Origin: a virus
Length of the DNA stretch: 64,000 nucleotides
Strand: one strand, 5' to 3'
Virus record (IMG/VR): IMGVR_UViG_3300003323_000567
Span: 32,001 to 96,000 of that record
How positions within the stretch are numbered: position 1 is the first letter of the stretch; every line of letters begins with the position of its first letter. The position numbers were made by a program, and so were the translations under genes. This document shows positions 4,038-58,481 of the stretch, piece after piece. The notes under the pieces were generated by a model, which saw nothing but the letters and a program-made list of their open reading frames with translations, ran no database searches and was not told the DNA's origin.

Positions 4038-4618
4038 TAGGTTAACCTCCAGACGGCTACTTGATTATTACCAATCCTGTCTACATAGAACTTCTTATCT
4101 GTGTCCATTAGAGAGACAAAGCTATTCACTCCTGCTCTAGCCATTGAGATCTTTCTTGATATATTATCCTCAGTGCAATCATCAAATATCACAATATGAT
4201 CTCCTACTTGCATGGCTTTGAGTGGTAAAGACCTGTAATTGAAATACTTTGCCTTTTTCTTCTCTACTTGTGCAGAGCTCACAGGAGCTGAAACATCTTT
4301 CTTAATCTCAAAAGATGAGCTCTTTTGCTTCTCAGAAGAAGAATTAGAGCTTTGTGTACTTTTGCGAACAACTCCTTCAACAGCATATCTTACAGGCTTA
4401 AAATAGGCTTTATCAGCAATTTCTCCTATTCTCTCAAGAGATAGTCCATCAAGTGGGATTGTGCCTGTTCCATCAGTGTGGATAATAAAGCATCTTTCTC
4501 CCCTGATCTCCATGTCTCCAGGCTTATTTCTGTAAAGCCCGCAGCTCTTTACCTTTTCTGTGATATACTTCACTGCATCCTTTTTTAAGTCTGCAATGCG
4601 AGATCCATATGAAATCAT
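4037..4618 (-). CDS. hypothetical protein
   Basis: 193-aa ORF coupled to neighbours. Confidence 0.7.
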   Translation of the reverse strand: MISYGSRIADLKKDAVKYITEKVKSCGLYRNKPGDMEIRGERCFIIHTDGTGTIPLDGLSLERIGEIADKAYFKPVRYAVEGVVRKSTQSSNSSSEKQKSSSFEIKKDVSAPVSSAQVEKKKAKYFNYRSLPLKAMQVGDHIVIFDDCTEDNISRKISMARAGVNSFVSLMDTDKKFYVDRIGNNQVAVWRLT

Positions 4619-5613
4619 ATAACACCTTTTTGTTTAAAATGATTAATAACTGTCTCTAAACCATGATACTTTGCTAAATCAGCAAAGTCCTTTATCACTT
4701 TGCCTTCAGGTGTGATGAACCCTTTCGGACAATTTATCCATTTGAATCCAAACTGATTATAGTACTTACATGCTTGCACACCTACATCATCACTATCGAA
4801 GTTAAGATAAGTAGTCGAGCAGTTCTTGTTTATGAGATCTATATTTTCTTTTGTAATAGCTATCTCACTCTCACTCTGTACTGAGGCCACATTTGGAAGA
4901 AACTTAGCTAAGACCATCTCATCCTTCTTGGACTTGGTTATTACACCTGTCTTGCAATTGTTTATTATCTTACTTAGGTTACTAATATATCTATTCGGAA
5001 CATTAGTAAGCCATTTGTTCCTCTTATCCCCTAAGGGTCTGTAGATCTTCCACTTATCTTTATTATCCCCCATGAGATAGCCAAATACCATATCAGTAGG
5101 AGGTATCATTATCCTCTCCCTATCAAGATAGAGCTTCTTCACAGCATATACATCATTTTCCTTAAGCTCTTTCTCTGTAATATGAAAGGATTTCCAATAA
5201 GCTAATTCAGAGCTATCAAACCTTCTGGTGACAACCTGGATTAAATAATCCTTTTTTGGTAATGAGTCTGTGATAGCCACTCTCTGCTTCTTTTCCTCTG
5301 GGCAGCTATATGCCCCAAGGTCTCTGGCAATCATTTTAAGAGCGGCCCAATAGCTCATTCCCATATATAGCTGTCTGACAAAATCCACACAATCTCCTCT
5401 CTTTGTAGGGTCTCCATAATCTAGGTGATGTAATCTCCCTGATTTTGAGACTATTATAGAGAAGCTGGGATCATTCTCCTTTCTGAAAGGGGAGCAGAAT
5501 GTTCTTCCAAGCACAAAGTCATGGCCAACATAGTACCTATATATCTCATAGTCGCTCACCTTCTCAAGTATAGCTTCGATAGTAAGATCTACTTTCTTTG
5601 CTCCTTTTACCAT
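4615..5613 (-). CDS. DNA primase (crAss-type)
   Basis: CSPFRKENDPSF zinc-finger-like N-terminus; TOPRIM-like ITKSKKD and FDSDDVG; C-terminal KDFAD. Confidence 0.85.
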   Translation of the reverse strand: MVKGAKKVDLTIEAILEKVSDYEIYRYYVGHDFVLGRTFCSPFRKENDPSFSIIVSKSGRLHHLDYGDPTKRGDCVDFVRQLYMGMSYWAALKMIARDLGAYSCPEEKKQRVAITDSLPKKDYLIQVVTRRFDSSELAYWKSFHITEKELKENDVYAVKKLYLDRERIMIPPTDMVFGYLMGDNKDKWKIYRPLGDKRNKWLTNVPNRYISNLSKIINNCKTGVITKSKKDEMVLAKFLPNVASVQSESEIAITKENIDLINKNCSTTYLNFDSDDVGVQACKYYNQFGFKWINCPKGFITPEGKVIKDFADLAKYHGLETVINHFKQKGVI

Positions 5614-5682: not shown

Positions 5683-6531
5683 TTAGTAACTTGTATCATC
5701 CTCAGAAATCACAGCACTTCCAGCTGTAATGTTCTTAGAAGGATCATATGGAGTTAATTCTCCAAGTGTAAAATGATCCTTGATTCCATACTGAGGATCA
5801 GTGATGTTCAGAACAAACTTCTGAAGCTTGCTCCTTTTCTTCTTCTCAGTAGCCTTAGCTCCTTCAATGAAGTTGTCATCAATTTTCCTCAATCTGATCT
5901 GCTTCATGGCATATCCAGGCAGGAATTCCTTATTATACACCTGTTCATACTCCATCGGTTGACCTTCTTTGTCAACAGTCCTCATTGTAACAAGGCAGCA
6001 AATTGTGCCGCTATATTCACCATTTATCTCCTGAGAGATCTCTTTAACATTTCCTTTCATCAGTTTAGACCAGTCAAAGGCTAAGACTGTCTCGGCATCT
6101 CTGGTATCAAGCTTGTTCAGCCAGGTAACAGCAAAATTATAGAGCTCTTCCTCACCTTCATGGGCCACTCTATATGGTCTGGATGCAAACCATTCAGCAA
6201 GATTCTTGGGGTTATCTGCCCAAGTAGTCATACCAACATCATTGATATACTGCTTCTTGGTTTTATCCTTATTCTCCTTCTCCACATCTTTCAAAAAGAA
6301 TCTGATATTCCTAAGTTCTCCACTTTTCACATCTTTTACCCATGCCACAACATTAACCTTTGTTTTCCCACTTTCATCCTTACTTAAGTATTCTGGATCT
6401 TTCTCCAGGGTAGTACTGAGAATCTTCTCCAATTTCTCCCGATCGGGATTAATAGCTATTACTTCCCCTTCGAAGAACCCAGTTTTCTTTACAAACTCCT
6501 TTTGCTCTCTTGCTTTACCTTTGATACTCAT
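5683..6531 (-). CDS. replication-module protein, putative ssDNA-binding protein
   Basis: VIAINP motif, acidic tail, located between AAA ATPase and primase. Confidence 0.5.
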   Translation of the reverse strand: MSIKGKAREQKEFVKKTGFFEGEVIAINPDREKLEKILSTTLEKDPEYLSKDESGKTKVNVVAWVKDVKSGELRNIRFFLKDVEKENKDKTKKQYINDVGMTTWADNPKNLAEWFASRPYRVAHEGEEELYNFAVTWLNKLDTRDAETVLAFDWSKLMKGNVKEISQEINGEYSGTICCLVTMRTVDKEGQPMEYEQVYNKEFLPGYAMKQIRLRKIDDNFIEGAKATEKKKRSKLQKFVLNITDPQYGIKDHFTLGELTPYDPSKNITAGSAVISEDDTSY

Positions 6532-19960: not shown

Positions 19961-20018
19961 TTGGGGGAGGAAGAATCGAACTTCCGACAAGAATACTCTA
20001 CCACTGAGCTATCCCCCA
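19961..20018 (-). ncRNA. tRNA-like element lacking the anticodon arm
   Basis: TGGGGGA-TAGCTCAGTGGTAGAGT-ATTCTTGTC-GGAAG TTCGATT CTTCC-TCCCCCA-A. Confidence 0.75.
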
Positions 20019-23525: not shown

Positions 23526-23542
23526 ATTAAATAAATTTATGT

Positions 23543-23635
23543 AGCGAGGGAAGGACTCGAACCTCCACGAGCTGTACCCAGAATTTAGCTCTCCACCGAG
23601 TTAGGATAGATGCTTTACCAATTTGCATACCTCGC
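23543..23635 (-). ncRNA. tRNA-like element with expanded anticodon arm
   Basis: GCGAGG...AATTGGTAAAGC D region, GGAGG TTCGAGT CCTTC T arm, CCTCGC; no 7-nt anticodon loop. Confidence 0.65.
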
Positions 23636-23650
23636 TGTGTGATAGATAAG

Positions 23651-40044: not shown

Positions 40045-40152
40045 TCATCTCTAAGGGGGTCGAACCCTTACCTTGCCTTGACACTGAGAAACAAGACTCT
40101 TTAAGAAAAACCAGCCTACAAGGACAATGCACTACCCTTATGCAAAGAGACG
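40045..40152 (-). ncRNA. tRNA-like element with enlarged anticodon arm
   Basis: CGTCTCT-TTGCATAAGGGTAGTGC-(long hairpin)-AAGGG TTCGACC CCCTT-AGAGATG-A. Confidence 0.6.
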
Positions 40153-41893: not shown

Positions 41894-42001
41894 TGGTTGT
41901 TCCTGCCTGAATCGAACAGACATCCTATATTGATGAAAAAGGGTTCATGTTTAAAAATACCCTTGCACCTCTATAGCGCTCTACCGTTGAGCTAAGGAAC
42001 A
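41894..42001 (-). ncRNA. tRNA-like element with enlarged anticodon arm and encoded CCA
   Basis: TGTTCCT-TAGCTCAACGGTAGAGC-(~50-nt arm)-GTCTG TTCGATT CAGGC-AGGAACA-A-CCA. Confidence 0.7.
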
Positions 42002-48996: not shown

Positions 48997-49090
48997 GATT
49001 TAGTTGTTTTATTGTTGAAGAAATTTAATTCGAACGTAAGAGCACCACAGATAAGACTATCTCAGTGCTCTTTATATCCCTGTAATATCT

Positions 49091-49291
49091 TTAGGCTGAT
49101 TTTAGGTCTGCCTTTTCAATTGTGTAACCTGCTTCCTTCCATATTTGAGTCATATACATCCAACCCTCTTCAGTAGCTTTAATTGTATATGACCAATTAG
49201 CTTGTTGTGGAAATGTTACAAAATATGTATACATGTAAGCTCCTATTGTGGTCTCTGTTATTGAGCTCATTCTGTAGATAATCCTTTTCAT
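49091..49291 (-). CDS. hypothetical protein
   Basis: 66-aa ORF, first gene of the leftward arm. Confidence 0.55.
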   Translation of the reverse strand: MKRIIYRMSSITETTIGAYMYTYFVTFPQQANWSYTIKATEEGWMYMTQIWKEAGYTIEKADLKSA

Positions 49292-49299
49292 ATGCTGAG

Positions 49300-50040
49300 T
49301 TTAATGTGGCATTTTGATCTGTAGCTCAACAGGTTATCATATCCCCCAAGGGGATGCTAGAGCTTGCACTCTCTAGCTAGTCTCATTGCAAGTGTATAAC
49401 CACTTTCAGTGCATTAGTCAAATAAATGACAAGTCTTGAGACTGGATGATTAGGTCACAACTCCGTGCCTTTTTATACTGCCATACAACAGTCTTATGCC
49501 ATATAATATATCATAATGATATCATATAACATAAAGTAATGAGAGCTGCAATACTGTACTTTATATAGTACTACAGCTCTCTATCATGTTGATAATCAAT
49601 GAGTTAGATCATAGTTTGTCTAGTCACATTGGCAACTAGCTCAGGGACTCATGCATTCTAGCTCATTGATAATCAAGGACTTATAAGCTTACGAAGTGAC
49701 CAATATTTCAGTTGGGATTAACGCTTAGCAATTATAAATCCTTGAAAATCAAGCAAGTGTGAGACATATTTAAATCTCATGTGCCCCAAAGGGTCATGGG
49801 GGGATACCCCCGACACTGCGATTTTACCAAGGGGTCAAGGGACGGTGTCCCCTTATTACTCATGTATATATAATAGATTTAGGGTAGCATGTATATGCGA
49901 AGTCAAAAAGTAAAACACTTGATATCACTGCATTTGGTTTGAGTTGCTCCCACGGTGAGATACAACTTTAGACCGTTAGTAAGGAGGGGGGGCTCTTATT
50001 CTATTACCTACAGTTCCCCCTGGGCATATATAGACCCATG
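49300..50040. other. non-coding strand-switch region (candidate origin or genome end)
   Basis: No ORF; divergent transcription; repeated TGAWAATCAA boxes, palindromes, G/C runs. Confidence 0.5.
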
Positions 50041-50062
50041 TTATACAGGTTTCTCTCACATA

Positions 50063-50094
50063 TTTGGAAATTAAAGGGGAACACATTACCTTTG
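50063..50094 (+). promoter_or_regulatory. Bacteroidota-type promoter
   Basis: TTTG-N20-TACCTTTG. Confidence 0.7.
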
Positions 50095-50109
50095 GAGAAA
50101 TATAAGGAC

Positions 50110-50514
50110 ATGAGTAAATTCACAGATGACTTTTTTGCCTTTCCTATTAAGGTGTATGATGGCTTCTCTCTGAAGAAGGCCATGGATGAAGAGGATAAGG
50201 TAGGGACTGAAGCTCCTGTGCCAATTGACTGGGTAGCTGGATGGGTGAGGATACCTGTAAAGGATTTACCTAAGATGATGTGGCATGAGGGCTTTTCCAG
50301 GGAGAGAAGTGTAAAGGATGTGGCTGAGGAAGGCTTTGATCTGACTATTGTTATTACTGATAGTTATGGAGAGTTTGTGAGTACATGGCCAAGGAAGAAG
50401 TTCGAAGCTAAGCTGGATGACTTCATGGCTAAGTATCAGACCAGGGCAAAGGACTATCTATCAAGCCCGAACCCCCATATTCTCGTTCAATCTATATCCC
50501 CTGAGGGACAATAG
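50110..50514 (+). CDS. hypothetical protein
   Basis: Start moved to MSKFTDD downstream of the promoter. Confidence 0.7.
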   Translation: MSKFTDDFFAFPIKVYDGFSLKKAMDEEDKVGTEAPVPIDWVAGWVRIPVKDLPKMMWHEGFSRERSVKDVAEEGFDLTIVITDSYGEFVSTWPRKKFEAKLDDFMAKYQTRAKDYLSSPNPHILVQSISPEGQ

Positions 50515-50524
50515 AGAAAATAAA

Positions 50525-50556
50525 TTTGGAGAATTGAAATCTTGGATCTATATTTG
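50525..50556 (+). promoter_or_regulatory. promoter of tRNA operon 1
   Basis: TTTG-N20-TATATTTG. Confidence 0.8.
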
Positions 50557-50583
50557 CAGGATAAAATCTAAACAAAGAAGAAA

Positions 50584-50664
50584 ATGTACTATTCAATAGT
50601 GGATAATGGGATCATGAGAGGCGCAGAGAAATCTGCTCCAGGGGTCTCTTTGTCTACTATGTAA
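50584..50664 (+). CDS. leader peptide 1 (MYYSIVDNGIMRGAEKSAPGVSLSTM)
   Basis: Between promoter and terminator; codons 5-16 match operon-1 tRNAs; 3' part complementary to the terminator. Confidence 0.8.
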   Translation: MYYSIVDNGIMRGAEKSAPGVSLSTM

Positions 50665-50686
50665 TTGATAAACAAGTAGTTAACCA

Positions 50687-50727
50687 AGATCCCTGGAGCA
50701 CCAAAGAGCTCTGGGGATTTTTGCTTT
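50687..50727 (+). terminator. attenuator terminator 1
   Basis: ATCCCTGGAGC/GCTCTGGGGAT + T-rich tail; antiterminator 50634-50647. Confidence 0.8.
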
Positions 50728-50729
50728 AT

Positions 50730-50800
50730 GCCCTCATAGCTTAATGGTAGAGCTCGAACCTTTTAAGTTTGAGATCCAAGTTCGATCCTTGGTGGGGGTA
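50730..50800 (+). tRNA. tRNA-Lys(UUU)
   Basis: Cloverleaf, loop CTTTTAA. Confidence 0.9.
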
Positions 50801-50809
50801 CAGAAATAT

Positions 50810-50880
50810 TCCCTTGTAGCTCTAAGGTAGAGTAGATGACTCTTAATCATCGGGCGAAGGTTCGATTCCTTCCAGGGGAA
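50810..50880 (+). tRNA. tRNA-Lys(CUU)
   Basis: Cloverleaf, loop CTCTTAA. Confidence 0.9.
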
Positions 50881-50881
50881 C

Positions 50882-51058
50882 ATGGCAACTAAAGATAAGA
50901 AAATCAGGAAGCTGAAGGACAGGATAGAGAAGATGGAAGCAGATATGTATAAAGAGTTGAGACAAAAGACATCTTCAACTGCAGAGATCAGCGTACATAA
51001 GTATCAAGCCAGATTGGCTCAAATGCATCTGGAGCTTCGGGAACTCGAAAAGAAATAG
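50882..51058 (+). CDS. small coiled-coil protein (58 aa)
   Basis: Manual translation MATKDKKIRKLKDRIEKMEAD...LEKK*. Confidence 0.6.
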   Translation: MATKDKKIRKLKDRIEKMEADMYKELRQKTSSTAEISVHKYQARLAQMHLELRELEKK

Positions 51059-51059
51059 T

Positions 51060-51266
51060 ATGAAGATTACGTTTCAAGAGATGGCTCTAAGGGGTAAAGA
51101 GATCTTGTCTAGGCAGGGGCCTGTTACATTAGAGCAGGCTAGGGAGCAAGTAGAAAGACTTAAGAAGAATTCAAAATGCTCCATAGCACAGGGGTTGAGT
51201 GCATCTGCCTTACAAGCAGTCGACCTTGGTTCGAGTCCAAGTGGAGCAACCCAAAAGGAGTTATAG
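51060..51266 (+). CDS. hypothetical protein reading through tRNA-Val
   Basis: Protein-like N-terminal ~39 aa; 3' part overlaps the tRNA. Confidence 0.4.
   Translation: MKITFQEMALRGKEILSRQGPVTLEQAREQVERLKKNSKCSIAQGLSASALQAVDLGSSPSGATQKEL
51177..51249 (+). tRNA. tRNA-Val(UAC)
   Basis: Loop CTTACAA. Confidence 0.88.
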
Positions 51267-51328
51267 CTCAATGAATAGAGCCTCTGCCTTCTAAGCAGAT
51301 TATCAAGGTTTGATTCCTTGTAACTCCT
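51257..51328 (+). tRNA. tRNA-Arg(UCU)
   Basis: Loop CTTCTAA. Confidence 0.9.
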
Positions 51329-51418
51329 CAGGTCTGTTTCCAGCTTCAGCGTGGAGTACAAAAGTTGGGGTTTTCAACTGCAGTGTATTACTTTCCATAA
51401 AGTGATCTCCTGCAGCCA

Positions 51419-51490
51419 GGACAGTTAGCTCAGAGGAAGAGCAAAGAGCTGTTAACTCTTAGGCCGGGATTTCGAAATTCCCACTGTCCT
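51419..51490 (+). tRNA. tRNA-Asn(GUU)
   Basis: Loop CTGTTAA. Confidence 0.9.
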
Positions 51491-51491
51491 C

Positions 51492-51779
51492 ATGAAAGAA
51501 TATCTGTTGAGTATAGGTTTTGAACAGAAGTTACCTTGGCAGTTTCACACTGATTCTTACATGGTAACTGAACTTGAAGAAGATTCCAACTCCATACCCC
51601 TCTGGAGCATCACAAATAAGAGGTATGATGAAAAAGTTTTCAGAGGAAGAATAAGGAGTGTTGAAGAGTTTAAGCAGATCTTTATGCTTGTGAAAGAGGA
51701 TTATGACTTGACACAGGATGAAATAAGTTGGGCAACAGCTATAAGAGGTAATGAAGAATTAAATAAGATTGCGGGGTAG
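51492..51779 (+). CDS. hypothetical protein
   Basis: 95-aa ORF between tRNAs. Confidence 0.65.
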   Translation: MKEYLLSIGFEQKLPWQFHTDSYMVTELEEDSNSIPLWSITNKRYDEKVFRGRIRSVEEFKQIFMLVKEDYDLTQDEISWATAIRGNEELNKIAG

Positions 51780-51843
51780 ACTGGAGAGGTGCCAGCTCAG
51801 TCTCATAAGCTGAATGACATGGGTTCGATTCCCATCCCCGCAA
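51770..51843 (+). tRNA. tRNA-Met(CAU)
   Basis: Loop CTCATAA; acceptor TGCGGGG/CCCCGCA. Confidence 0.85.
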
Positions 51844-51911
51844 CTAATCAGGTCTCCCACCCTGGTCCAGAGGGAGAGCAATGGGGCACTTGGGGACTGC
51901 CTACCTGATAT

Positions 51912-51982
51912 GCATCACAAGCATTGTGACGATGCTCCATCCTTCCAAGTTGGAGAGCAGGGTTTGATTCCCTGGTGGTGCT
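51912..51982 (+). tRNA. tRNA-Gly(UCC)
   Basis: Loop CTTCCAA, U73. Confidence 0.85.
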
Positions 51983-51983
51983 C

Positions 51984-52211
51984 ATGGATAAGAATGAAGT
52001 AAAGAAGAGATTATATAAGGAAAACCCAGGTGCAATCTTACTGGAGGTAAGAGCAGATGGTATGTTATACCAAGCTCTCTTTAAAGGGGATGATGGGTTA
52101 CCTGATATAAACCAAAAAGTAAAATTCCTTGTTCCCTTAGGGGAAATAGGAGAAGTAGTATGGAATAGGATAATGGATGCTAAATTATTAATAAGATGGT
52201 TACAAGATTAA
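51984..52211 (+). CDS. hypothetical protein
   Basis: MDKNEVKKRLYKENP.A...F.VP..E.G......MDAKLLIRW. Confidence 0.7.
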   Translation: MDKNEVKKRLYKENPGAILLEVRADGMLYQALFKGDDGLPDINQKVKFLVPLGEIGEVVWNRIMDAKLLIRWLQD

Positions 52212-52229
52212 AAGAAGGTGAGGAGCTAT

Positions 52230-52302
52230 GCTCCCATCGTCTAATCGGTTAGGACGTTACTCTTTCAAGGTAAAAACGAGGGATCATAACCCTCTGGGAG
52301 TA
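52230..52302 (+). tRNA. tRNA-Glu(UUC)
   Basis: Loop CTTTCAA; atypical T loop ATCATAA. Confidence 0.85.
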
Positions 52303-52313
52303 CAACATATTTA

Positions 52314-52395
52314 AGCTACATTGCGGACAAATGCTCTTAACTGAGCTGAGACCTGATAGGTTTCATACAGCAATTTGTCTGTCCGCCATGTGGCT
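52314..52395 (+). ncRNA. solitary permuted stem-ACAGCAA element
   Basis: AGCTACAT-GCGGACA...GAGACCT-GAT-AGGTTTC-AT-ACAGCAA...TGTCCGC-ATGTGGCT. Confidence 0.55.
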
Positions 52396-52400
52396 AGTTC

Positions 52401-52470
52401 GAGGGTGTGGTGTAATGGTTGCATAACATCTTGTCACGGTGCAGGTTGGGGTTCGAGCCCCCCACTCTCG
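52401..52470 (+). tRNA. tRNA-Asp(GUC)
   Basis: Loop TTGTCAC, G73. Confidence 0.85.
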
Positions 52471-52478
52471 ACTTAAAT

Positions 52479-52554
52479 CGGCTCATAGTTTAAGAGGTCA
52501 AAACTCCCGACTCATAATCGGATGTTCCCAGATCATGGCTGGGTGAGCCAACCA
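52479..52554 (+). tRNA. tRNA(CAU): Met/fMet or lysidine-type Ile
   Basis: Loop CTCATAA, C1xA72 mismatch, encoded CCA, atypical T loop ATCATGG. Confidence 0.8.
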
Positions 52555-52636
52555 ATCTTGAGGGTGCATGTCCCTCAGGGACAACTAGAGGATAAAGTGG
52601 GGGAGGGTAAGAACCCCCTCTCCCCCTTTATCAAAT

Positions 52637-52708
52637 TGCCTGGTAACTCAGTGGTAGAGTGCCTCTCTGATACGGAGTGAGTGGATAGTTCGATTCTATC
52701 TCAGGCAA
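52637..52708 (+). tRNA. tRNA-Ile(GAU)
   Basis: Loop CTGATAC. Confidence 0.85.
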
Positions 52709-52772
52709 CAGTAGGGACAGCTAAGTAACTGGAAGGGATGAAAGTTAGCCTTCGGGTTCTGTCCAAACACCA

Positions 52773-52846
52773 GGGGTTACATGTACCAAGGTTGGCGAGG
52801 GATCCTTGCAAGATCTCTGAGAAGAGTTCGATTCTCTTTAGCTCCA
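52773..52846 (+). tRNA. tRNA-Ala(UGC)
   Basis: Loop CTTGCAA, G3.U70, A73; atypical D arm. Confidence 0.8.
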
Positions 52847-52854
52847 CAGATTTA

Positions 52855-52886
52855 TTTGGAAATCTCAAAAAGACTTCCTACATTTG
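52855..52886 (+). promoter_or_regulatory. promoter of tRNA operon 2
   Basis: TTTG-N20-TACATTTG. Confidence 0.8.
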
Positions 52887-52893
52887 CAACATC

Positions 52894-52962
52894 ATGACAA
52901 AAGTATTATCATATTCCAGTCTATATCTCTTGATCAAAGATCGAGCTGGGATGGTTATATAG
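52894..52962 (+). CDS. leader peptide 2 (MTKVLSYSSLYLLIKDRAGMVI)
   Basis: Nine consecutive Leu/Ser/Tyr codons matching operon-2 tRNAs. Confidence 0.8.
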   Translation: MTKVLSYSSLYLLIKDRAGMVI

Positions 52963-52984
52963 TTTTTTTTGAAACCGTGGAGGT

Positions 52985-53019
52985 GCCCCAGCTTTTCTAG
53001 GCTGGGGTTTTTTGTTTTT
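52985..53019 (+). terminator. attenuator terminator 2
   Basis: GCCCCAGC/GCTGGGGT + T run; antiterminator 52943-52956. Confidence 0.85.
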
Positions 53020-53021
53020 AT

Positions 53022-53094
53022 ACCTTGGTAGCCCAACGGAAGAGGCAGTAGTCTTAGGAACTACACAGTGTGGGTTCGAATCCCACCCTCGGTA
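53022..53094 (+). tRNA. tRNA-Leu(UAG)
   Basis: Loop CTTAGGA; short variable arm; two acceptor mismatches. Confidence 0.8.
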
Positions 53095-53179
53095 CATGTT
53101 TATAATTTGTTTTGGAGAGTGTATGTGGCTAGTAGAGTTCAATGGACTGACTACTAATTGGTTATGCAGATTGGTATAA

Positions 53180-53254
53180 GTCCCTGTGATGTAATTAGGT
53201 AACCATACCAGACTTAAAATCTGGGTTTTGTAGGTTCAAGTCCTACCAGGGATA
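53180..53254 (+). tRNA. tRNA-Leu(UAA)
   Basis: Loop CTTAAAA. Confidence 0.88.
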
Positions 53255-53259
53255 CATAA

Positions 53260-53345
53260 GGAAGGTAGCACGGGATGCTCTGTAACTAGTCTTGAAAACT
53301 AGGCCAACGTGAAGAGCGTTGATGGTTGGACTCCATTACCTTCCT
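53260..53345 (+). tRNA. tRNA-Ser(UGA)
   Basis: Loop CTTGAAA, long variable arm. Confidence 0.82.
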
Positions 53346-53352
53346 CATATAA

Positions 53353-53436
53353 GGAGAGCAAACCTAAGAAGCCTTAGGAGCAGACTGCTAATCTGACTGT
53401 CCCTTAGGGGATGTGGATCGAGACCACTACTCTCCT
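53353..53436 (+). tRNA. tRNA-Ser(GCU)
   Basis: Loop CTGCTAA, long variable arm. Confidence 0.8.
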
Positions 53437-53441
53437 CATAT

Positions 53442-53512
53442 TGAGTGGATGCCAGGGCAGCAGGCAATGTCTGTAAAACATAGGCACTAGGGTTCGAGTC
53501 CCTACCACTCAA
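53442..53512 (+). tRNA. tRNA-Tyr(GUA)
   Basis: Loop CTGTAAA. Confidence 0.82.
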
Positions 53513-53518
53513 CTTTTA

Positions 53519-53550
53519 TTTGGTAGTCTCAAATAACTACCATATATTTG
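53519..53550 (+). promoter_or_regulatory. promoter of tRNA operon 3
   Basis: TTTG-N20-TATATTTG. Confidence 0.8.
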
Positions 53551-53554
53551 CATC

Positions 53555-53635
53555 ATGAATAAAGTATTTCGTCATACGTGGTTTACCTGTCAGCCTACTC
53601 AACCAGTGGGAAGGGGTGATGTCATGTATGATTAG
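53555..53635 (+). CDS. leader peptide 3 (MNKVFRHTWFTCQPTQPVGRGDVMYD)
   Basis: Codons 5-17 use only the amino acids of operon-3 tRNAs. Confidence 0.8.
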   Translation: MNKVFRHTWFTCQPTQPVGRGDVMYD

Positions 53636-53656
53636 AATATAAAGTTCTTGCATGCC

Positions 53657-53693
53657 AACCCCCTTTCTAACCAGATTGGGGGTTTTTCTTTTT
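53657..53693 (+). terminator. attenuator terminator 3
   Basis: AACCCCC/GGGGGTT + T run; antiterminator ~53608-53627. Confidence 0.8.
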
Positions 53694-53695
53694 AT

Positions 53696-53767
53696 CTAGT
53701 TGTAGCCTAGAGGCCAGGCACTTGCTTTGGGAGCAAGATGACGCTAGTTCGATCCTAGCCAGCTAGA
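53696..53767 (+). tRNA. tRNA-Pro(UGG)
   Basis: Loop TTTGGGA. Confidence 0.88.
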
Positions 53768-53772
53768 CATAC

Positions 53773-53846
53773 TCCAGATATGCTTTGATGGTGAAGCGCC
53801 TGTCTTGTAAACAGGAATAGAGAGTGTTCGAGTCACTCATCTGGAT
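53773..53846 (+). tRNA. tRNA-Thr(UGU)
   Basis: Loop CTTGTAA. Confidence 0.85.
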
Positions 53847-53851
53847 CATTT

Positions 53852-53924
53852 GGTGCTCAAGCAATTGTGGTCAATGCACCTGTCTGAAGAGCAGGCAAAC
53901 TCAGTTCGATCCTGAGGGGTACCA
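53852..53924 (+). tRNA. tRNA-Phe(GAA)
   Basis: Loop CTGAAGA. Confidence 0.85.
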
Positions 53925-53931
53925 CTTATAA

Positions 53932-54003
53932 TGCCCTTTAGCACAATGGTAGTGCGTGAGTCTTTGGTCCTCATTATGTAAGGTTCGATTCCTACAGGGG
54001 CAT
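53932..54003 (+). tRNA. tRNA-Gln(UUG)
   Basis: Loop CTTTGGT; acceptor TGCCCTT/AGGGGCA. Confidence 0.8.
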
Positions 54004-54005
54004 CT

Positions 54006-54078
54006 GTGGAGATACCAATTCGGTGAATGGGCTTGGCTGTGAACCAGGTAAGGCAGTTCGACTCTGCACTCCACCCCA
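54006..54078 (+). tRNA. tRNA-His(GUG)
   Basis: Loop CTGTGAA, C73, encoded CCA. Confidence 0.82.
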
Positions 54079-54149
54079 CTACCCTTCGTTCAAAGGAAGG
54101 ACTTGAAGCTACGAACTTCAGGATATAGGTTCGAATCCTATAGGGTAGT
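54079..54149 (+). tRNA. tRNA-Arg(ACG)
   Basis: Loop CTACGAA. Confidence 0.88.
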
Positions 54150-54154
54150 CATAC

Positions 54155-54223
54155 ATCTCTCAGGCCATGGGGGCCAAACAGTCTCCAAAACTGCAGGATA
54201 AGGTTCGATTCCTTAGAGGGGTG
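54155..54223 (+). tRNA. tRNA-Trp(CCA)
   Basis: Loop CTCCAAA, G73. Confidence 0.82.
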
Positions 54224-54230
54224 CCGATAA

Positions 54231-54304
54231 GGCCAATTCGCCAAGTGGCAAGGCCGAGGCTTGCAAACCCTCTATCACCTGTTCGATTCAGGTATTGGCC
54301 TCCA
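54231..54304 (+). tRNA. tRNA-Cys(GCA)
   Basis: Loop TTGCAAA, U73, encoded CCA. Confidence 0.85.
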
Positions 54305-54307
54305 GGA

Positions 54308-54331
54308 TCCTCTCTAATGAGAGGATTTTTG
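54308..54331 (+). terminator. terminator closing the tRNA region
   Basis: ATCCTCTC-TAAT-GAGAGGAT-TTTT. Confidence 0.8.
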
Positions 54332-54411
54332 CTTTTTATGGCATTAAGTCCCAGATACTTACATATTACTTCAAAAAAGGTCGTTAACTTTGTAAAAGAA
54401 AACCAAGCTAC

Positions 54412-54771
54412 ATGAAGGTAATTGTGCAGAAAATACGGAGAGAGGTAGCTTCTGACGTGGAAAAGGCAATAAGGTATTATTCTGTACTCCTTGCTCTGAA
54501 TCAAGTTAAGCTTCCACAGAAGCAGCTATATCTATTGGCATTCACTGCAGCCCGAGGGAGTATAACATCTCCTGCTGCAAGAAAGGAATTTGTAGAGATG
54601 TTTGATAGTTCCCTGGCATCTTTGGAGAACATGAAGCAAGAACTTGTTAAGTCTGGTTTTCTGGTCCAAACTGACATGAAGTATAGAGTTAATCCAAGCA
54701 TTGCTCTGGATTTCTCAAAGGATATACAATTACAGATAAACCTAAAGGGAAGTGAAAAAGACCCAAGATAG
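54412..54771 (+). CDS. putative winged-helix DNA-binding protein
   Basis: 119 aa, LVKSGFLV...YRVNP; preceded by TAACTTTG. Confidence 0.55.
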   Translation: MKVIVQKIRREVASDVEKAIRYYSVLLALNQVKLPQKQLYLLAFTAARGSITSPAARKEFVEMFDSSLASLENMKQELVKSGFLVQTDMKYRVNPSIALDFSKDIQLQINLKGSEKDPR

Positions 54772-55132
54772 TATAGCAACAGACAAGCTGAAAGCTGTAT
54801 TAGTTACAAGGACTGCTATAAAGACTCTTGTTCCAGAAGACATAGTAGAGAAAGTTATAATGTTCCAGTTCAAGGATGCAAGAGATGCAATGACAGAACA
54901 TGAGCAGGTGGAGATAACAGGCTTTGGAAAATTTATGACCTCCCCTAATAAGCTCAAAAACCAAATACACAAACTGGAAGAGACACTCAAAAGCATGGAG
55001 GCAAAGTTCAGAGATAGGCCTAATGAAATCCCGGCAAGAAGATTAGCAGTCTGGGAAAAGCTCACAGAAGCCATAGAAGTTGAACTTGCTTGCCTAAAAA
55101 CCAAAAAGGGGGGATATGAAAGTAAGCCTTAA
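54752..55132 (+). CDS. IHF/HU-like DNA-binding protein
   Basis: VEITGFGKF motif; location upstream of terminase as in crAss-like phages. Confidence 0.7.
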   Translation: MKKTQDSIATDKLKAVLVTRTAIKTLVPEDIVEKVIMFQFKDARDAMTEHEQVEITGFGKFMTSPNKLKNQIHKLEETLKSMEAKFRDRPNEIPARRLAVWEKLTEAIEVELACLKTKKGGYESKP

Positions 55133-56093: not shown

Positions 56094-56379
56094 GAAACAG
56101 GAAAACAGCTATATAGGAATGGAGCTCGAGTGGCTTGACAAGAAGGCCACTGAGATCCGTGAATACTGTAATCAACCTATCCATCAGATAACTGACCGTA
56201 AAGACGGACAAAAAGTCATAGCAAAAAAAGAGGATATAATCAAGTCCATAAGAGAAACTCTAAAGGACTACATCCAGATTATAGCAGCCCTCGATACTCT
56301 AAGGGAGAAAGAAGCATCTAAGACACCTTCAGTAAGGGGTGATCAGGAACTTTCCCCTCTTGAAAAAGGTGAGATCTAA
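56083..56379 (+). CDS. hypothetical protein, possible terminase small subunit
   Basis: Immediately upstream of and coupled to the large subunit. Confidence 0.45.
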   Translation: MATKKQENSYIGMELEWLDKKATEIREYCNQPIHQITDRKDGQKVIAKKEDIIKSIRETLKDYIQIIAALDTLREKEASKTPSVRGDQELSPLEKGEI

Positions 56380-58481
56380 TGATAGACACTAAGTATACTC
56401 GACCAACTAAAAACATCTGGTTCCCAGATCAGGTAGAACCAGAGTATGATCCTGCAGATGAAGCTGTCATGGAAGTCTTTAAGGCTTACTGGGCAGAAGA
56501 GAAGCGCAGAATGAAGGAAGGCTTCTATCTAGCTGACGGTCAGGTTTTTATCTCAGGTTGGCTATATTGGCATACAGTATACTGGAATATCGCCATGTAT
56601 ATTGAAAATGAAAAGCTTGGTAAAAAAATCAGGGTAATAAAAACACCCTATCTCAGGGATATAGAATGGATCATAGCTAATGACTTTGTTCAATGTGAGA
56701 AGCTCGGGAAATTCTATCCATTAGTTGGATCTCGTGACTTCGGGAAATCTATTATAGCAGGATCCAGAGCTGGATATAATTATACCCTATTTGACAAATC
56801 AGAATCCATAATTAGTGCAGGGAATGCTACTTATATCAAACTAGCCACTGATAAAGTTGAAGATGGGCTCATTAATTTACATCCAATTCTAGCAAAGCAA
56901 AGGATAATAAATGACTGGAAGAAGGAAGTAAAGGCAGGATGGAAAGATAAGAAGACTGGAATAACTCATCCTAATTCTTCTCAATCCTCTATCCAGATAA
57001 GAAACTTTGAAGAAGGATCAAAGACAGATGCTGCTGTAGGAGCCAGACCTGGCTTTCATCTCATAGATGAAATTGGTACAATCAAAAACTTCATTGCCTG
57101 TTTAAAGGACTCTGAAGGAGCATGGTGGTCAGGTGTTACTGAAGGGGAGGTAGACAAACCCTCTTGTCTGGCAATGATAACTGGAACAGGAGGAGACATG
57201 GAAAAAGGAAAGGAGGCTGCAGAAGTCTTCACTCATCCTGAAGCATATAACATGCTGGCATTTGACAACCCTGAGATCCCTGGTACCAAGATGGGAAGAT
57301 TCATCAATGCTCTGATGGCAAAGATGAAGTACAAGGATCCAATGAAACTTTCAGATTATCTCGGGATACAACATCCTGATTTAGAGAAGATTGAGATTCT
57401 TGTTACTAATGAACAGAAGGCAAGAGAATGGTGGGATAGAGAACACTCCAGAGCCTTAAAGTCAAACAACCAGAAGACCTTATTAAAATTCAAGGCTTTT
57501 TGGCCACTTGTACCATCAGATAGCTTCCTGGTTCTCACTAAGAATGACTTCAATATAGAAGCTGCCAAGGCCCAGAAATCAAAACTAGCTGCCCTTGGGA
57601 AGACAGGAACTCCGGTTGAACTATATCATGACGGTGAGAAGATCTGTCATAAGTTCACTGATAAATTTCCAATATCAGAATTCCCAGCCAAAACTCTCGG
57701 CACTCTGGATGCTCCGGTAGTCATCTGGGAGTTTCCTATAGAAGATGAGCCCCCATTTGGCTTGTATATAGCCGGGGTTGACCCCTATAGACAAGGTAGG
57801 GCTGAGTATTCAGATTCCCTGGGGGCAGTATACATCTTTAAGAGAATTCATGACATACAATCGGACAAATATCAGAACCTATTTGTAGCCTCATATGTAG
57901 CAAGGCCTGATAGCAAAGATAAGTGGAATGAGACAGCCAGACTTCTGATCAAATATTATAATGCTTATACTCTTTGTGAGAATGATGAGTATAGCTTTAT
58001 AGACTACATGGTAAAGAAAGGGGATGCTGCCAGATATCTGGCCCCTCAGCCAAGCTGGCTTAGGGAGATTGTACCAAATACTTCAGTTAGAAGGGATTAT
58101 GGAATTCACAGATCTAGTGACAGGATTAGAAATCACCTGGATGGCTTACTAAAATCCTACCTGGATGATGTGATATATAGAGATGAAGAGAAAGGATATG
58201 AAACCCTAGGAGTAACAAGGGTATTTGATCCAATGCTTCTGGAAGAGATTATTCACTTCAATTCAGAGGAAGGAAACTATGACCGCGTAGTAGCAGCTGA
58301 GCTTGCCATTGCCCTGGCGGACCATTTGAATCCTCAGTTCGTAGTAGCCTCAGATAAGAAGGATCCAAGATTTGAGGCATATTTCTCAGGAAAAAAGAGC
58401 TCCAATAAGGTAATAGATTTTTCAACATCAACACCTATGATTTCCACAAGGGGAAGGTTAAGATCAAAATTATTTATATAG
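56379..58481 (+). CDS. terL: terminase large subunit
   Basis: SRDFGKS Walker A, LIDEIG Walker B, GTGG, AGVDPY nuclease, NYDRV. Confidence 0.92.
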   Translation: MIDTKYTRPTKNIWFPDQVEPEYDPADEAVMEVFKAYWAEEKRRMKEGFYLADGQVFISGWLYWHTVYWNIAMYIENEKLGKKIRVIKTPYLRDIEWIIANDFVQCEKLGKFYPLVGSRDFGKSIIAGSRAGYNYTLFDKSESIISAGNATYIKLATDKVEDGLINLHPILAKQRIINDWKKEVKAGWKDKKTGITHPNSSQSSIQIRNFEEGSKTDAAVGARPGFHLIDEIGTIKNFIACLKDSEGAWWSGVTEGEVDKPSCLAMITGTGGDMEKGKEAAEVFTHPEAYNMLAFDNPEIPGTKMGRFINALMAKMKYKDPMKLSDYLGIQHPDLEKIEILVTNEQKAREWWDREHSRALKSNNQKTLLKFKAFWPLVPSDSFLVLTKNDFNIEAAKAQKSKLAALGKTGTPVELYHDGEKICHKFTDKFPISEFPAKTLGTLDAPVVIWEFPIEDEPPFGLYIAGVDPYRQGRAEYSDSLGAVYIFKRIHDIQSDKYQNLFVASYVARPDSKDKWNETARLLIKYYNAYTLCENDEYSFIDYMVKKGDAARYLAPQPSWLREIVPNTSVRRDYGIHRSSDRIRNHLDGLLKSYLDDVIYRDEEKGYETLGVTRVFDPMLLEEIIHFNSEEGNYDRVVAAELAIALADHLNPQFVVASDKKDPRFEAYFSGKKSSNKVIDFSTSTPMISTRGRLRSKLFI

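What the first reader, a model, noticed from the sequence alone, without database searches (positions are those of the whole stretch)
50584..50727. Attenuator 1: 14-bp antiterminator and a 12-codon sensor that includes AUA
TGCTCCAGGGGTCT (50634-50647) pairs over 14 bp (one G.U) with AGATCCCTGGAGCA (50687-50700), the terminator 5' arm. The sensor codons ATA GTG GAT AAT GGG ATC ATG AGA GGC GCA GAG AAA end 2 nt before it. ATA, ATC and ATG all occur, which suggests one of the two CAU tRNAs in this block may act as a lysidine-modified Ile tRNA. GGC has no dedicated GCC tRNA that I could find.
Basis: partly seen in the sequence, partly recalled or inferred. Interest (0 to 1): 0.7.

Follow-up and report, generated by a model that had tools for sequence, protein, structure and literature searches.

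The report
Codon-matched attenuator gating phage tRNA genes
A phage of Bacteroidota-type hosts puts a tiny test gene, written in the codons read by the twelve tRNAs that follow it, in front of a switchable transcription stop, so it probably makes those tRNAs only when ribosomes decode their codons slowly.

Summary
Observation confirmed. 50634-50647 pairs over 14 bp (one G.U) with 50687-50700, the 5' arm of a terminator hairpin (50686-50721 plus T run) that ends 8 nt before tRNA-Lys (50730). No shuffle or random genomic window matched the duplex energy. Upstream lie a Bacteroidota-type promoter (50525-50556) and a 26-codon ORF (50584-50664).

Codons 5-16 of the ORF hit 11 of the 12 block-1 tRNAs, each once. 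That happened in 9 of 200,000 simulated ORFs.

The cassette recurs in four other phage genomes, including Leptolyngbya phage Lbo-JY46. The antiterminator shows compensatory changes in 6 of 14 pairs. Where tRNA genes sit in different blocks in different genomes (Asp, Asn, Arg-ACG, Cys), the leader codons match the local block: 19 of 19 in-block against 7 of 38 out-of-block.

Best reading: a classical ribosome-mediated attenuator, here applied to tRNA genes and sensing decoding of their own codons. tRNA 52479-52554 fits published tRNA-Ile(CAU) discriminators. No GCC tRNA exists for GGC.

There are no expression data. Six literature searches found no such system in print. Earlier notes of this scan on the same genome reached the same reading. 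This is a new variant of a known kind.

The parts
50525..50556 (+). Bacteroidota-type promoter: TTTG (-33) 50525-50528, 20-nt spacer, TATATTTG (-7) 50549-50556
   Evidence: Pattern scan: 5 matches in 64 kb against 1.39 expected, and 3 of the 5 precede the three leader ORFs. The consensus is quoted in PMC7366714. Both boxes are conserved in L003.
50557..50583 (+). Short A-rich 5' UTR without a Shine-Dalgarno sequence (transcription start inferred a few nt after the -7 box)
   Evidence: Sequence. Bacteroidetes mRNAs lack SD, are A-rich upstream of the start, and have a modal 5' UTR of 23 nt (PMC7366714 passages). The start site itself is inferred, not mapped.
50584..50664 (+). Leader ORF, 26 codons plus stop (MYYSIVDNGIMRGAEKSAPGVSLSTM)
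   Evidence: The same length and frame are kept in L003, with 4 synonymous changes among 10 changed codons. The other two frames carry stops and lower tRNA coverage.
50596..50631 (+). Sensor codons 5-16: 11 of 12 are cognate to block-1 tRNAs, each for a different tRNA (only GGC is unmatched; only tRNA-Lys CUU is unrepresented)
   Evidence: A ribosome-mask fold gives the antiterminator as MFE for A-site codons 5-13 only.
50596..50660 (+). Leader hairpin (candidate anti-antiterminator / pause structure). It pairs the sensor codons with the ORF's 3' end and sequesters the antiterminator 5' arm.
   Evidence: MFE folds of all five genomes show it. The outer stem is 78.2% paired in the MAFFT alignment against 30.8-55.8% for slid controls, but shows no covariation.
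50634..50647 (+). Antiterminator 5' arm (inside the ORF, codons 17-22)
50687..50700 (+). Antiterminator 3' arm, which is also the terminator 5' arm
50686..50729 (+). Intrinsic terminator: 14-bp hairpin 50686-50721, then a T-rich tail running up to the tRNA
   Evidence: RNAalifold keeps 13 pairs across five genomes, with compensatory changes.
50730..52845 (+). Regulated block 1: tRNAs Lys-UUU, Lys-CUU, Val-UAC, Arg-UCU, Asn-GUU, CAU (Met type, 51770-51844), Gly-UCC, Glu-UUC, Asp-GUC, CAU (Ile2 type, 52479-52554), Ile-GAU and Ala-UGC (52775-52845), with four small ORFs interleaved
   Evidence: The next strict promoter motif is at 52855.

Best explanation
This is a ribosome-mediated (leader-peptide) transcription attenuator that gates the first tRNA block of the phage.

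Proposed mechanism:
1. Transcription starts at the Bacteroidota-type promoter.
2. A ribosome translates the 26-codon leader.
3. If all block-1 codons are decoded quickly, the ribosome runs on through the antiterminator arm (50634-50647). The terminator (50686-50721) forms and RNA polymerase stops 8 nt before tRNA-Lys.
4. If any of about ten codon types (ATA, GTG, GAT, AAT, GGG, ATC, ATG, AGA and so on) is decoded slowly because its charged tRNA is scarce, the ribosome stalls in codons 5-13.
5. The stall melts the leader hairpin, so 50634-50647 pairs with 50687-50700. The terminator cannot form and the twelve tRNAs are transcribed.
6. The new tRNAs relieve the stall and close the loop. This amounts to a demand-driven, OR-type negative feedback on tRNA supply.

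Shown: the anatomy, its conservation, covariation of the antiterminator, and co-variation of leader codons with block content. Inferred: translation of the ORF, stall-dependent read-through, and the feedback.
For: Anatomy.

Duplex energy of the antiterminator against shuffles of the ORF's 3' part and against random genomic windows:
- window: -25.5 kcal/mol; 0 of 500 shuffles; 0 of 494 windows
- L003: -26.2; 0 of 500; 0 of 487
- L011: -23.3; 1 of 500; 0 of 490
- L057: -18.9; 1 of 500; 0 of 487
- L140: -15.1; 14 of 500; 5 of 494

Antiterminator covariation on a MAFFT alignment that was not fitted to structure: 84.6% of 65 cells paired, 6 of 14 pairs with compensatory changes, and 1 of 500 shuffles reached the covariation score. 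Slid controls gave at most 57.8% paired and at most 1 compensatory pair.

Terminator: 13 pairs kept in five genomes.

Sensor: 11 distinct block-1 tRNAs hit in 12 codons. This occurred in 9 of 200,000 simulated 25-codon ORFs. 0 of 9,977 real 12-codon windows of the phage's long ORFs reached even 10 distinct tRNAs. The signal is frame-specific.

Block specificity across five genomes, codons 2-17:
- leader 1: 55 of 80 block-1 cognate, 8 block-2, 6 block-3
- leader 2: 16, 28, 11
- leader 3: 17, 0, 49

Presence of a cognate codon in a tRNA's own leader: 97 of 113. In other leaders: 51 of 226. For the four tRNAs whose block differs between genomes: 19 of 19 against 7 of 38.

Ribosome-mask folding switches to the antiterminator exactly for codons 5-13 in the window, 4-16 in L011 (plus codon 2) and 5-14 in L057.
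Against: - No RNA or ribosome data exist. No sequencing run was listed.
- Only five instances were found, and two of them (window and L003) are close relatives, so the Fisher tests are not phylogenetically independent.
- Equilibrium ribosome-mask folding does not switch in L140 and switches only at codon 10 in L003.
- When the transcript is cut before the 3' arm, the antiterminator is already the MFE without any ribosome in 4 of 5 genomes. Default termination must therefore rest on the translating ribosome or on kinetic trapping by the leader hairpin, and that outer stem shows no covariation.
- Block-1 codons make up 50.8% of the phage's codon usage. The count of 11 of 12 cognate codons alone is weak: 4,391 of 200,000 simulated ORFs reach it.
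- L011 lacks an ATG (a GTG start is assumed) and has an imperfect -7 box.
- L057 has non-block Thr codons among the sensor codons.
- Whether transcription and translation are coupled in the unknown host has not been tested.
Confidence: 0.77

Rival explanations
1. Same attenuator hardware, but what it reads is general amino-acid supply or overall translation capacity of the infected cell, not tRNA abundance. On this reading it ties tRNA synthesis to starvation or growth state rather than giving feedback through the phage tRNAs themselves.
For: Any leader-peptide attenuator responds to charged tRNA, so amino-acid starvation would also stall the ribosome (established for the trp and his leaders; recalled). 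The leader covers about ten amino acids at once.
Against: A general sensor would not need three separate leaders, each restricted to its own block. Nor would it need leader codons that follow individual tRNA genes when they change block. Codon choice fits the anticodons present: AGA but not CGN in leader 1, except in L057, where tRNA-Arg(ACG) is in block 1.
Confidence: 0.12
2. The ORF encodes an ordinary small protein with its own promoter and terminator. The tRNAs are made by constitutive read-through or processing, and the codon match is incidental.
For: Small ORFs are common in this array. Block-1 codons make up half of all codons.
Against: The peptide sequence is poorly conserved beyond close relatives, while its composition tracks the block. 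There are only 8 nt between the hairpin and the tRNA, so the tRNAs have no promoter of their own. A conserved, covarying antiterminator has no role in a plain gene end.
Confidence: 0.05
3. An RNA-only switch (T-box-like, or binding a protein or ligand) in which the ORF is not translated.
For: Strongly structured leader (z = -3.47). The conserved ATAG and GCTC / CTGAG motifs could be binding sites.
Against: No Rfam family other than tRNA-clan families (tRNA, tRNA-Sec and a sub-threshold tmRNA hit) reached its gathering score in 49000-55000, even when listing matches up to E = 1. No T-box and no known leader family was listed. The open frame, synonymous changes and frame-specific codon signal point to translation.
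Confidence: 0.05

Closest known systems
Multivalent leader-peptide attenuators of enterobacterial amino-acid operons (thrL with Thr and Ile codons; ilvL with Ile, Leu and Val codons; trpL, hisL, pheL). Recalled from textbook knowledge; the pheL mechanism was read in PMC3082878 passages.
   Same: Promoter, short translated leader with regulatory codons, alternative 1:2, 2:3 and 3:4 helices, and an intrinsic terminator just before the regulated genes. A ribosome stall selects the antiterminator.
   Different: The regulated genes are tRNAs, not biosynthetic enzymes. The sensor is not a run of one codon but about eleven different codons, one per downstream tRNA. The output can directly relieve the stall. 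The mRNA has no Shine-Dalgarno sequence and uses a Bacteroidota-type promoter. No Rfam leader family matched.
pheM leader of the pheST operon (attenuation control of phenylalanyl-tRNA synthetase). Recalled.
   Same: Leader-peptide attenuation is used to regulate a component of the decoding apparatus according to decoding of the cognate codon.
   Different: It controls one synthetase through one amino acid. Here it controls the tRNAs themselves, twelve at a time.
T-box riboswitches
   Same: They gate transcription of translation-related genes by a terminator / antiterminator choice that depends on the state of a specific tRNA.
   Different: A T-box binds uncharged tRNA directly and needs no translation. 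No T-box match was listed, and the element here carries a conserved ORF.
tRNA gene arrays of large phages such as T5 and T4 (a T5 tRNA-Ser similarity appears; their regulation is recalled)
   Same: Clusters of about 20 tRNA genes with small ORFs and tRNA-like RNAs interleaved.
   Different: I know of no report of a leader-peptide attenuator before those arrays. The searches (and 49 for Lbo-JY46) found none.

Membership tests
Ribosome-mediated (leader-peptide) transcription attenuator | Promoter upstream of the leader and none between the terminator and the regulated gene | tested here: met
   A strict TTTG-N20-TAnnTTTG motif lies at 50525-50556. The next one on this strand is at 52855. Only 8 nt separate the hairpin from the tRNA.
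Ribosome-mediated (leader-peptide) transcription attenuator | Short open reading frame in the leader, kept open in relatives | tested here: met
   A 26-codon ORF. ORFs of 26 to 36 codons sit at the same place in L003, L011 (GTG start), L057 and L140. The other frames carry stops.
Ribosome-mediated (leader-peptide) transcription attenuator | Regulatory codons that correspond to the product of the regulated genes | tested here: met
   11 of 12 sensor codons are each cognate to a different block-1 tRNA. Block specificity and moved-tRNA co-variation are shown.
Ribosome-mediated (leader-peptide) transcription attenuator | Intrinsic terminator (G+C-rich hairpin plus U run) before the regulated genes | tested here: met
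   (14 pairs, 6 G-C, T run). It is conserved with compensatory changes in five genomes.
Ribosome-mediated (leader-peptide) transcription attenuator | Antiterminator helix mutually exclusive with the terminator, its 5' arm within reach of the translating ribosome | tested here: met
   (energies against shuffles and random windows); 84.6% paired, 6 of 14 pairs compensatory. The arm lies inside the ORF in all five genomes.
Ribosome-mediated (leader-peptide) transcription attenuator | Anti-antiterminator / pause hairpin (1:2) that enforces termination when no ribosome stalls | tested here: inconclusive
   A leader hairpin is predicted in all five genomes. Its outer stem is 78.2% paired but shows no covariation. 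At equilibrium, 2:3 beats it in 4 of 5 truncated transcripts.
Ribosome-mediated (leader-peptide) transcription attenuator | Read-through rises when the cognate charged tRNA is limiting | not testable with these tools
   Needs reporter assays or Term-seq. No sequencing run was listed.
T-box riboswitch | Match to the T-box covariance model (specifier loop plus T-box sequence) | tested here: not met
   Rfam scan of 49000-55000 at E up to 1: no T-box match was listed.
tRNA-Ile2 (CAU, lysidine) for 52479-52554 | Pair 3:70 is not C:G (G3, A3, C70 or T70 indicate Ile). C4:G69 is frequent in Ile. The fMet pairs A11:T24 and G12:C23 are absent (Silva et al. 2006, PMC1635315 passages). | tested here: met
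   One search gives G3:C70, C4:G69, T11:A24 and T12:A23. Homologues: L011 and L140 have A3:T70, L057 has G3:C70, and L003 has T3:A70 (not in the rule) but C4:G69 and C5:G68. C5:G68 is not met in the window (U5:A68).
tRNA-Ile2 (CAU, lysidine) for 52479-52554 | C34 converted to lysidine and charged with Ile | not testable with these tools
   Needs tRNA mass spectrometry or a charging assay. The annotation of weak BLAST hits is mixed: tRNA-Ile in 2 records and tRNA-Met in most others.

The most novel reading that the evidence does not exclude
The three codon-matched attenuators form an inducible tRNA replacement system. Each leader would act as an OR gate that detects loss of any one host tRNA species, for instance after cleavage by host anticodon nucleases or tRNA-depleting defence systems, or after phage-induced host shut-off. 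It would then switch on exactly the block that holds the substitute tRNAs. If so, this is the first case of tRNA genes autoregulated through the decoding speed of their own codons, and a phage counter-defence that is expressed only on demand.
Probability: 0.25. Interest if true: 0.92.

Novelty: new variant of a known kind. Interest (0 to 1): 0.85.

Why it matters
Leader-peptide attenuation is a textbook mechanism, but it is known for amino-acid biosynthesis and a few synthetase genes.

Here the same hardware appears to regulate tRNA genes themselves. The sensor lists one codon for nearly every tRNA in the operon. That would give direct homeostatic control of decoding capacity.

If confirmed, it would explain how large phages dose their tRNA arrays. 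It would also supply a natural multi-input sensor of codon-specific translation speed. And it would open a testable link between phage tRNAs and host tRNA-targeting defences.

A cultured relative, Leptolyngbya phage Lbo-JY46, carries the same cassettes, so the hypothesis is directly testable.

Tried and rejected
Searches for more relatives
- The upstream 158-aa protein as anchor found nothing in IMG/VR.
- Exact DNA patterns of the antiterminator and leader found nothing. Near-identical records may be hidden by the tool.
- A leader-3 motif scan returned only contigs already known plus unrelated hits without tRNA arrays.
- The terminase profile found nothing in genome contigs.
- Terminase relatives at 47-61% identity (the contigs of L010, L012, L016, L018 and L019) carry 0 to 5 tRNAs and no array, so the cassette is confined to a sub-lineage.
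- The terminator-before-tRNA scan flagged nothing in the differently organised arrays of L023, L100, L101, L110, L117, L136 and L137. The scan is crude: it also missed the window's third block and L057's first.

Known-family checks
- I recalled that E. coli pheV has a Phe-rich leader and attenuator. I checked it and rejected it: a promoter lies directly upstream and there is no leader ORF.
- The Rfam scan found no known leader or T-box.
- Pfam on nine neighbouring ORFs gave nothing above its cut-offs.

Expression
- No RNA holder was listed.

Literature
- Searches found no description of a leader-peptide attenuator before tRNA genes, and no paper on Lbo-JY46.
- Papers were seen only as search listings and abstract starts, except passages of PMC3082878, PMC7366714 and PMC1635315.
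- Supplements were not opened.
- Two old NAR papers, asked for by DOI, were not held.

Other limits
- Isotype-specific tRNAscan-SE is not available here. I applied the published discriminators by eye to the ARAGORN drawings.
- In L057 the first tRNA of block 1 (Lys-UUU type) was assigned by eye, from its likeness to the L140 gene. ARAGORN did not call it.

Full report
WHAT THE WINDOW IS. The window is bases 32001-96000 of a 126,034-base IMG/VR virus record rated 100% complete. Its large terminase (56379-58481) is distantly related to those of crAss-like, Flavobacterium and Cellulophaga phages (26-28% identity). It is closest to Leptolyngbya phage Lbo-JY46, at 35% identity.

All canonical tRNA genes of the record lie in one plus-strand array at 50730-54304. 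Default ARAGORN finds 23 there. Rfam's tRNA model finds 19 there plus four tRNA-like elements elsewhere on the minus strand. A relaxed ARAGORN run adds tRNA-Ala(UGC) at 52775-52845. This gene has an unusual D arm and only hit the tmRNA model in Rfam.

THE OBSERVATION.
- A 26-codon ORF runs from ATG 50584 to the stop at 50662-50664.
- Its codons 5-16 are ATA GTG GAT AAT GGG ATC ATG AGA GGC GCA GAG AAA (50596-50631).
- Two nucleotides later, 50634-50647 is complementary over 14 bp (one G.U) to 50687-50700.
- That second stretch is the 5' arm of a hairpin (50686-50721; 14 pairs, 6 G-C, 8-nt loop) followed by a T run.
- tRNA-Lys(UUU) begins at 50730.

The pairing is not chance. The best duplex is -25.5 kcal/mol, reached by 0 of 500 shuffles of the ORF's 3' part and by 0 of 494 random genomic windows of equal length. 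The leader as a whole folds with z = -3.47.

UPSTREAM SIGNALS. TTTG-N20-TATATTTG lies at 50525-50556. This matches the -33 and -7 consensus of the primary sigma factor of Bacteroidetes, quoted in passages of PMC7366714. The strict motif occurs five times in the 64-kb window against 1.39 expected, and 2 of 100 shuffles reached five. Three of the five sites lie just before three small ORFs, each followed by a terminator that abuts a tRNA (50525, 52855, 53519).

The 5' UTR would be about 20-25 nt, A-rich and without a Shine-Dalgarno sequence, as described for Bacteroidetes in the same paper. With only 8 nt between hairpin and tRNA, block 1 has no room for its own promoter. It must be reached through the terminator.

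THE SENSOR. With tRNA-Ala included, block 1 holds twelve tRNAs. Under strict wobble rules, 11 of the 12 sensor codons are read by block-1 tRNAs, and each by a different one. Only GGC is unmatched, and only tRNA-Lys(CUU) is not represented.

Block-1 codons make up 50.8% of the phage's codon usage. The count of 11 of 12 is therefore weak on its own: 4,391 of 200,000 simulated 25-codon ORFs contain such a run. Eleven distinct tRNAs in twelve codons is rare, however. It occurred in 9 of 200,000 simulated ORFs. None of 9,977 real 12-codon windows in the 34 long ORFs of the window reaches even ten.

The signal is confined to the reading frame. Before the antiterminator arm, frame 0 covers 11 of 12 tRNAs with no stop. 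Frames 1 and 2 cover 8 and 6 and contain stops.

RELATIVES. A terminase profile retrieved 74 viral and 58 metagenomic loci. Only a sub-lineage carries the large array. Leader 1 could be read in five genomes:
- the window;
- L003 (86% terminase identity);
- L011 (59%);
- L057 (36%);
- L140, which is phage Lbo-JY46 (35%).

All five have, in the same order, a promoter motif (imperfect in L011, not seen in L057), an ORF of 26 to 36 codons (GTG start in L011), a terminator abutting tRNA-Lys(UUU), and a segment inside the ORF that pairs with the terminator's 5' arm. For the four relatives the duplex energies and controls are:
- L003: -26.2 kcal/mol; 0 of 500 shuffles; 0 of 487 random windows;
- L011: -23.3; 1 of 500; 0 of 490;
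- L057: -18.9; 1 of 500; 0 of 487;
- L140: -15.1; 14 of 500; 5 of 494.

Between the window and L003 the ORF keeps its length and frame. Of 10 changed codons, 4 are synonymous.

COVARIATION. I used a plain MAFFT alignment of the five leaders, not fitted to any structure.
- Antiterminator: a standard pair forms in 84.6% of 65 cells. 6 of 14 pairs show changes on both sides. 1 of 500 shuffles reaches the covariation score. Sliding the partner by 1-3 columns gives at most 57.8% paired and at most one compensatory pair. The structure was derived from the window sequence, which favours it somewhat.
- Terminator: RNAalifold recovers a 13-pair helix with compensatory changes.
- Leader hairpin: it pairs the sensor codons with the end of the ORF and is predicted in all five genomes. 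Its outer stem is 78.2% paired against 30.8-55.8% for slid controls, but shows no covariation. It is plausible but not demonstrated.

CO-VARIATION OF CODONS WITH tRNA CONTENT. This is the strongest evidence. The array has three blocks, each behind its own cassette. Over codons 2-17 in five genomes:
- leader 1: 55 of 80 codons are cognate to block 1, 8 to block 2, 6 to block 3;
- leader 2: 16, 28 and 11;
- leader 3: 17, 0 and 49.

A tRNA has a cognate codon in its own leader in 97 of 113 cases, and in another leader in 51 of 226 cases.

Four tRNAs sit in different blocks in different genomes.
- In L057, Asp and Asn are in block 3 and Arg(ACG) is in block 1. Its leader 1 has no Asp or Asn codon among codons 2-17 and gains CGC. 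Its leader 3 gains Asn and Asp codons.
- In Lbo-JY46, Cys is in block 1. Its leader 1 has several Cys codons and its leader 3 has none.
- For these four tRNAs, a cognate codon is present in 19 of 19 in-block cases and 7 of 38 out-of-block cases.

The Fisher p-values (8e-30 and 1e-9) overstate the case, because the genomes are related. The relocations in L057 and Lbo-JY46 are separate natural experiments, though, and they came out as predicted.

MECHANISM. I modelled a stalled ribosome as an unpaired stretch from 15 nt before to 14 nt after the first base of the A-site codon.
- Window: the MFE has the terminator with no ribosome, and with a ribosome at codons 1-4 or 14-27. It has the antiterminator for codons 5-13. 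The predicted switching zone therefore starts exactly at the first sensor codon.
- L011 (codon 2 and codons 4-16) and L057 (codons 5-14) behave alike.
- L003 switches only at codon 10, and Lbo-JY46 not at all. Both have longer terminators.

When the transcript is cut before the terminator's 3' arm, the antiterminator forms at equilibrium even without a ribosome in 4 of 5 genomes. As in the classical model, termination in the unstalled case must come from the ribosome running over the arm, or from kinetic trapping by the leader hairpin.

These are thermodynamic sketches, and the footprint size is an assumption. The last three sensor codons (GCA GAG AAA) may lie too close to the arm to act as stall sites.

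THE TWO CAU tRNAs. Passages of Silva et al. 2006 (PMC1635315) state three rules:
- tRNA-Met and tRNA-fMet genes usually have C3:G70, so G3, A3, C70 or T70 indicate tRNA-Ile(CAT);
- C4:G69 and C5:G68 are frequent in tRNA-Ile(CAT);
- A11:T24 and G12:C23 mark fMet.

In the ARAGORN drawings, 52479-52554 has G3:C70, C4:G69, T11:A24 and T12:A23. Its homologues have A3:T70 (L011, L140), G3:C70 (L057) or T3:A70 with C4:G69 and C5:G68 (L003). All lie next to tRNA-Ile(GAU).

51770-51844 and its homologues have C3:G70. All except the L011 homologue (A4:T69) also carry the G-rich initiator-like acceptor stem. Their full-length BLAST hits are annotated tRNA-Met.

L057 has only the first type in block 1, and before the antiterminator arm its leader has ATA twice and no ATG. 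ATA is in the sensor of all five leaders and accounts for 242 of 684 Ile codons in the phage's long ORFs. An odd C1xA72 mismatch in three of the five homologues remains unexplained.

GGC indeed has no GCC tRNA in the record. L003 has GGT at that codon, and L011, which does carry tRNA-Gly(GCC), has only GGG among its sensor codons.

COMPARISON WITH KNOWN SYSTEMS. The element works like the leader-peptide attenuators of amino-acid operons, most like the multivalent thr and ilv leaders (recalled). It meets every sequence-level criterion of that class that can be tested here. It matches no Rfam leader family and no T-box.

What differs is the target and the logic. The regulated genes are tRNAs, the sensor carries roughly one codon per tRNA, and the product can relieve the stall directly.

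Six searches of the paper library found no description of such control, and one search found no paper on Lbo-JY46. My own recollection of a Phe-rich leader before E. coli pheV proved wrong when I read the locus.

Earlier notes of this scan on the same genome describe the three cassettes, and a follow-up on the third one reached the same reading. I took the third cassette's position from that note and checked it myself.

VERDICT. This is a new variant of a known mechanism and of high interest. Confidence in the attenuator reading is about 0.77. The main gaps are the lack of any expression or termination data and the small number of independent lineages.

Noticed in passing
window 52775-52845: tRNA-Ala(UGC) with G3:U70 and an atypical, enlarged D arm. 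Default ARAGORN and Rfam's tRNA model both miss it; it hit only the tmRNA model, at 16.8 bits. Conserved in L003, L057, L087 and L140 at the end of block 1.
   Followed up: partly
window 52855-53019 and 53519-53694: Two further cassettes of the same design: promoter motif, a 22- or 26-codon ORF rich in Leu/Ser/Tyr or in Phe/Arg/His/Thr/Trp/Cys/Gln/Pro codons, and a terminator abutting tRNA-Leu or tRNA-Pro. In both, the ATG lies only about 7 nt after the -7 box, so these mRNAs may be nearly leaderless.
   Followed up: partly
window 54304-54329: Terminator-like hairpin with a T run directly after the last tRNA (Cys). Probably the end of the third tRNA operon.
   Followed up: no
L140 (Leptolyngbya phage Lbo-JY46, PP438436.1) 1789-1820, 5352-5383, 6081-6112: A phage recorded as infecting a cyanobacterium carries strict Bacteroidota-type promoter motifs (TTTG-N20-TAnnTTTG) before all three leaders. 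Either the recorded host is not the transcriptional host, or the phage redirects promoter recognition.
   Followed up: no
window 52479-52554; L003 6100-6174; L057 4734-4807: The putative tRNA-Ile2(CAU) has a C1xA72 mismatch, a hallmark usually linked to bacterial initiator tRNA, although its D stem and its 3:70 and 4:69 pairs are of the Ile type. Unexplained.
   Followed up: partly
L057 about 4350-4425 and L140 2015-2086: The first tRNA after attenuator 1 (Lys-UUU) has an unusual T arm in these two genomes. Default ARAGORN misses both, and the relaxed run finds only the L140 copy.
   Followed up: no
L011 5692-5850: Inside block 1 of this relative, a 48-codon, very basic ORF with its own terminator precedes tRNA-Ala. 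This adds a fourth terminator-before-tRNA junction without codon matching.
   Followed up: no
L048 3028-3145: In a distant relative, a strict promoter motif sits directly before an initiator-type tRNA-Met, with no leader or terminator. The next block (Pro, Asp, Phe, Gln) has a leader ORF and terminator. So the lineage also uses unregulated tRNA promoters.
   Followed up: no
window 19961-20018, 23542-23636, 40045-40152, 41897-42001 (minus strand): Four tRNA-like elements outside the array score above Rfam's tRNA cut-off (34-46 bits). One of them is called tRNA-Val(AAC) by ARAGORN, with a length of 96 nt.
   Followed up: no
window 50063-50094: A fifth strict promoter motif lies just inside the longest reading of ORF 50038-50514. 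The real start of that gene may therefore be a later ATG.
   Followed up: no
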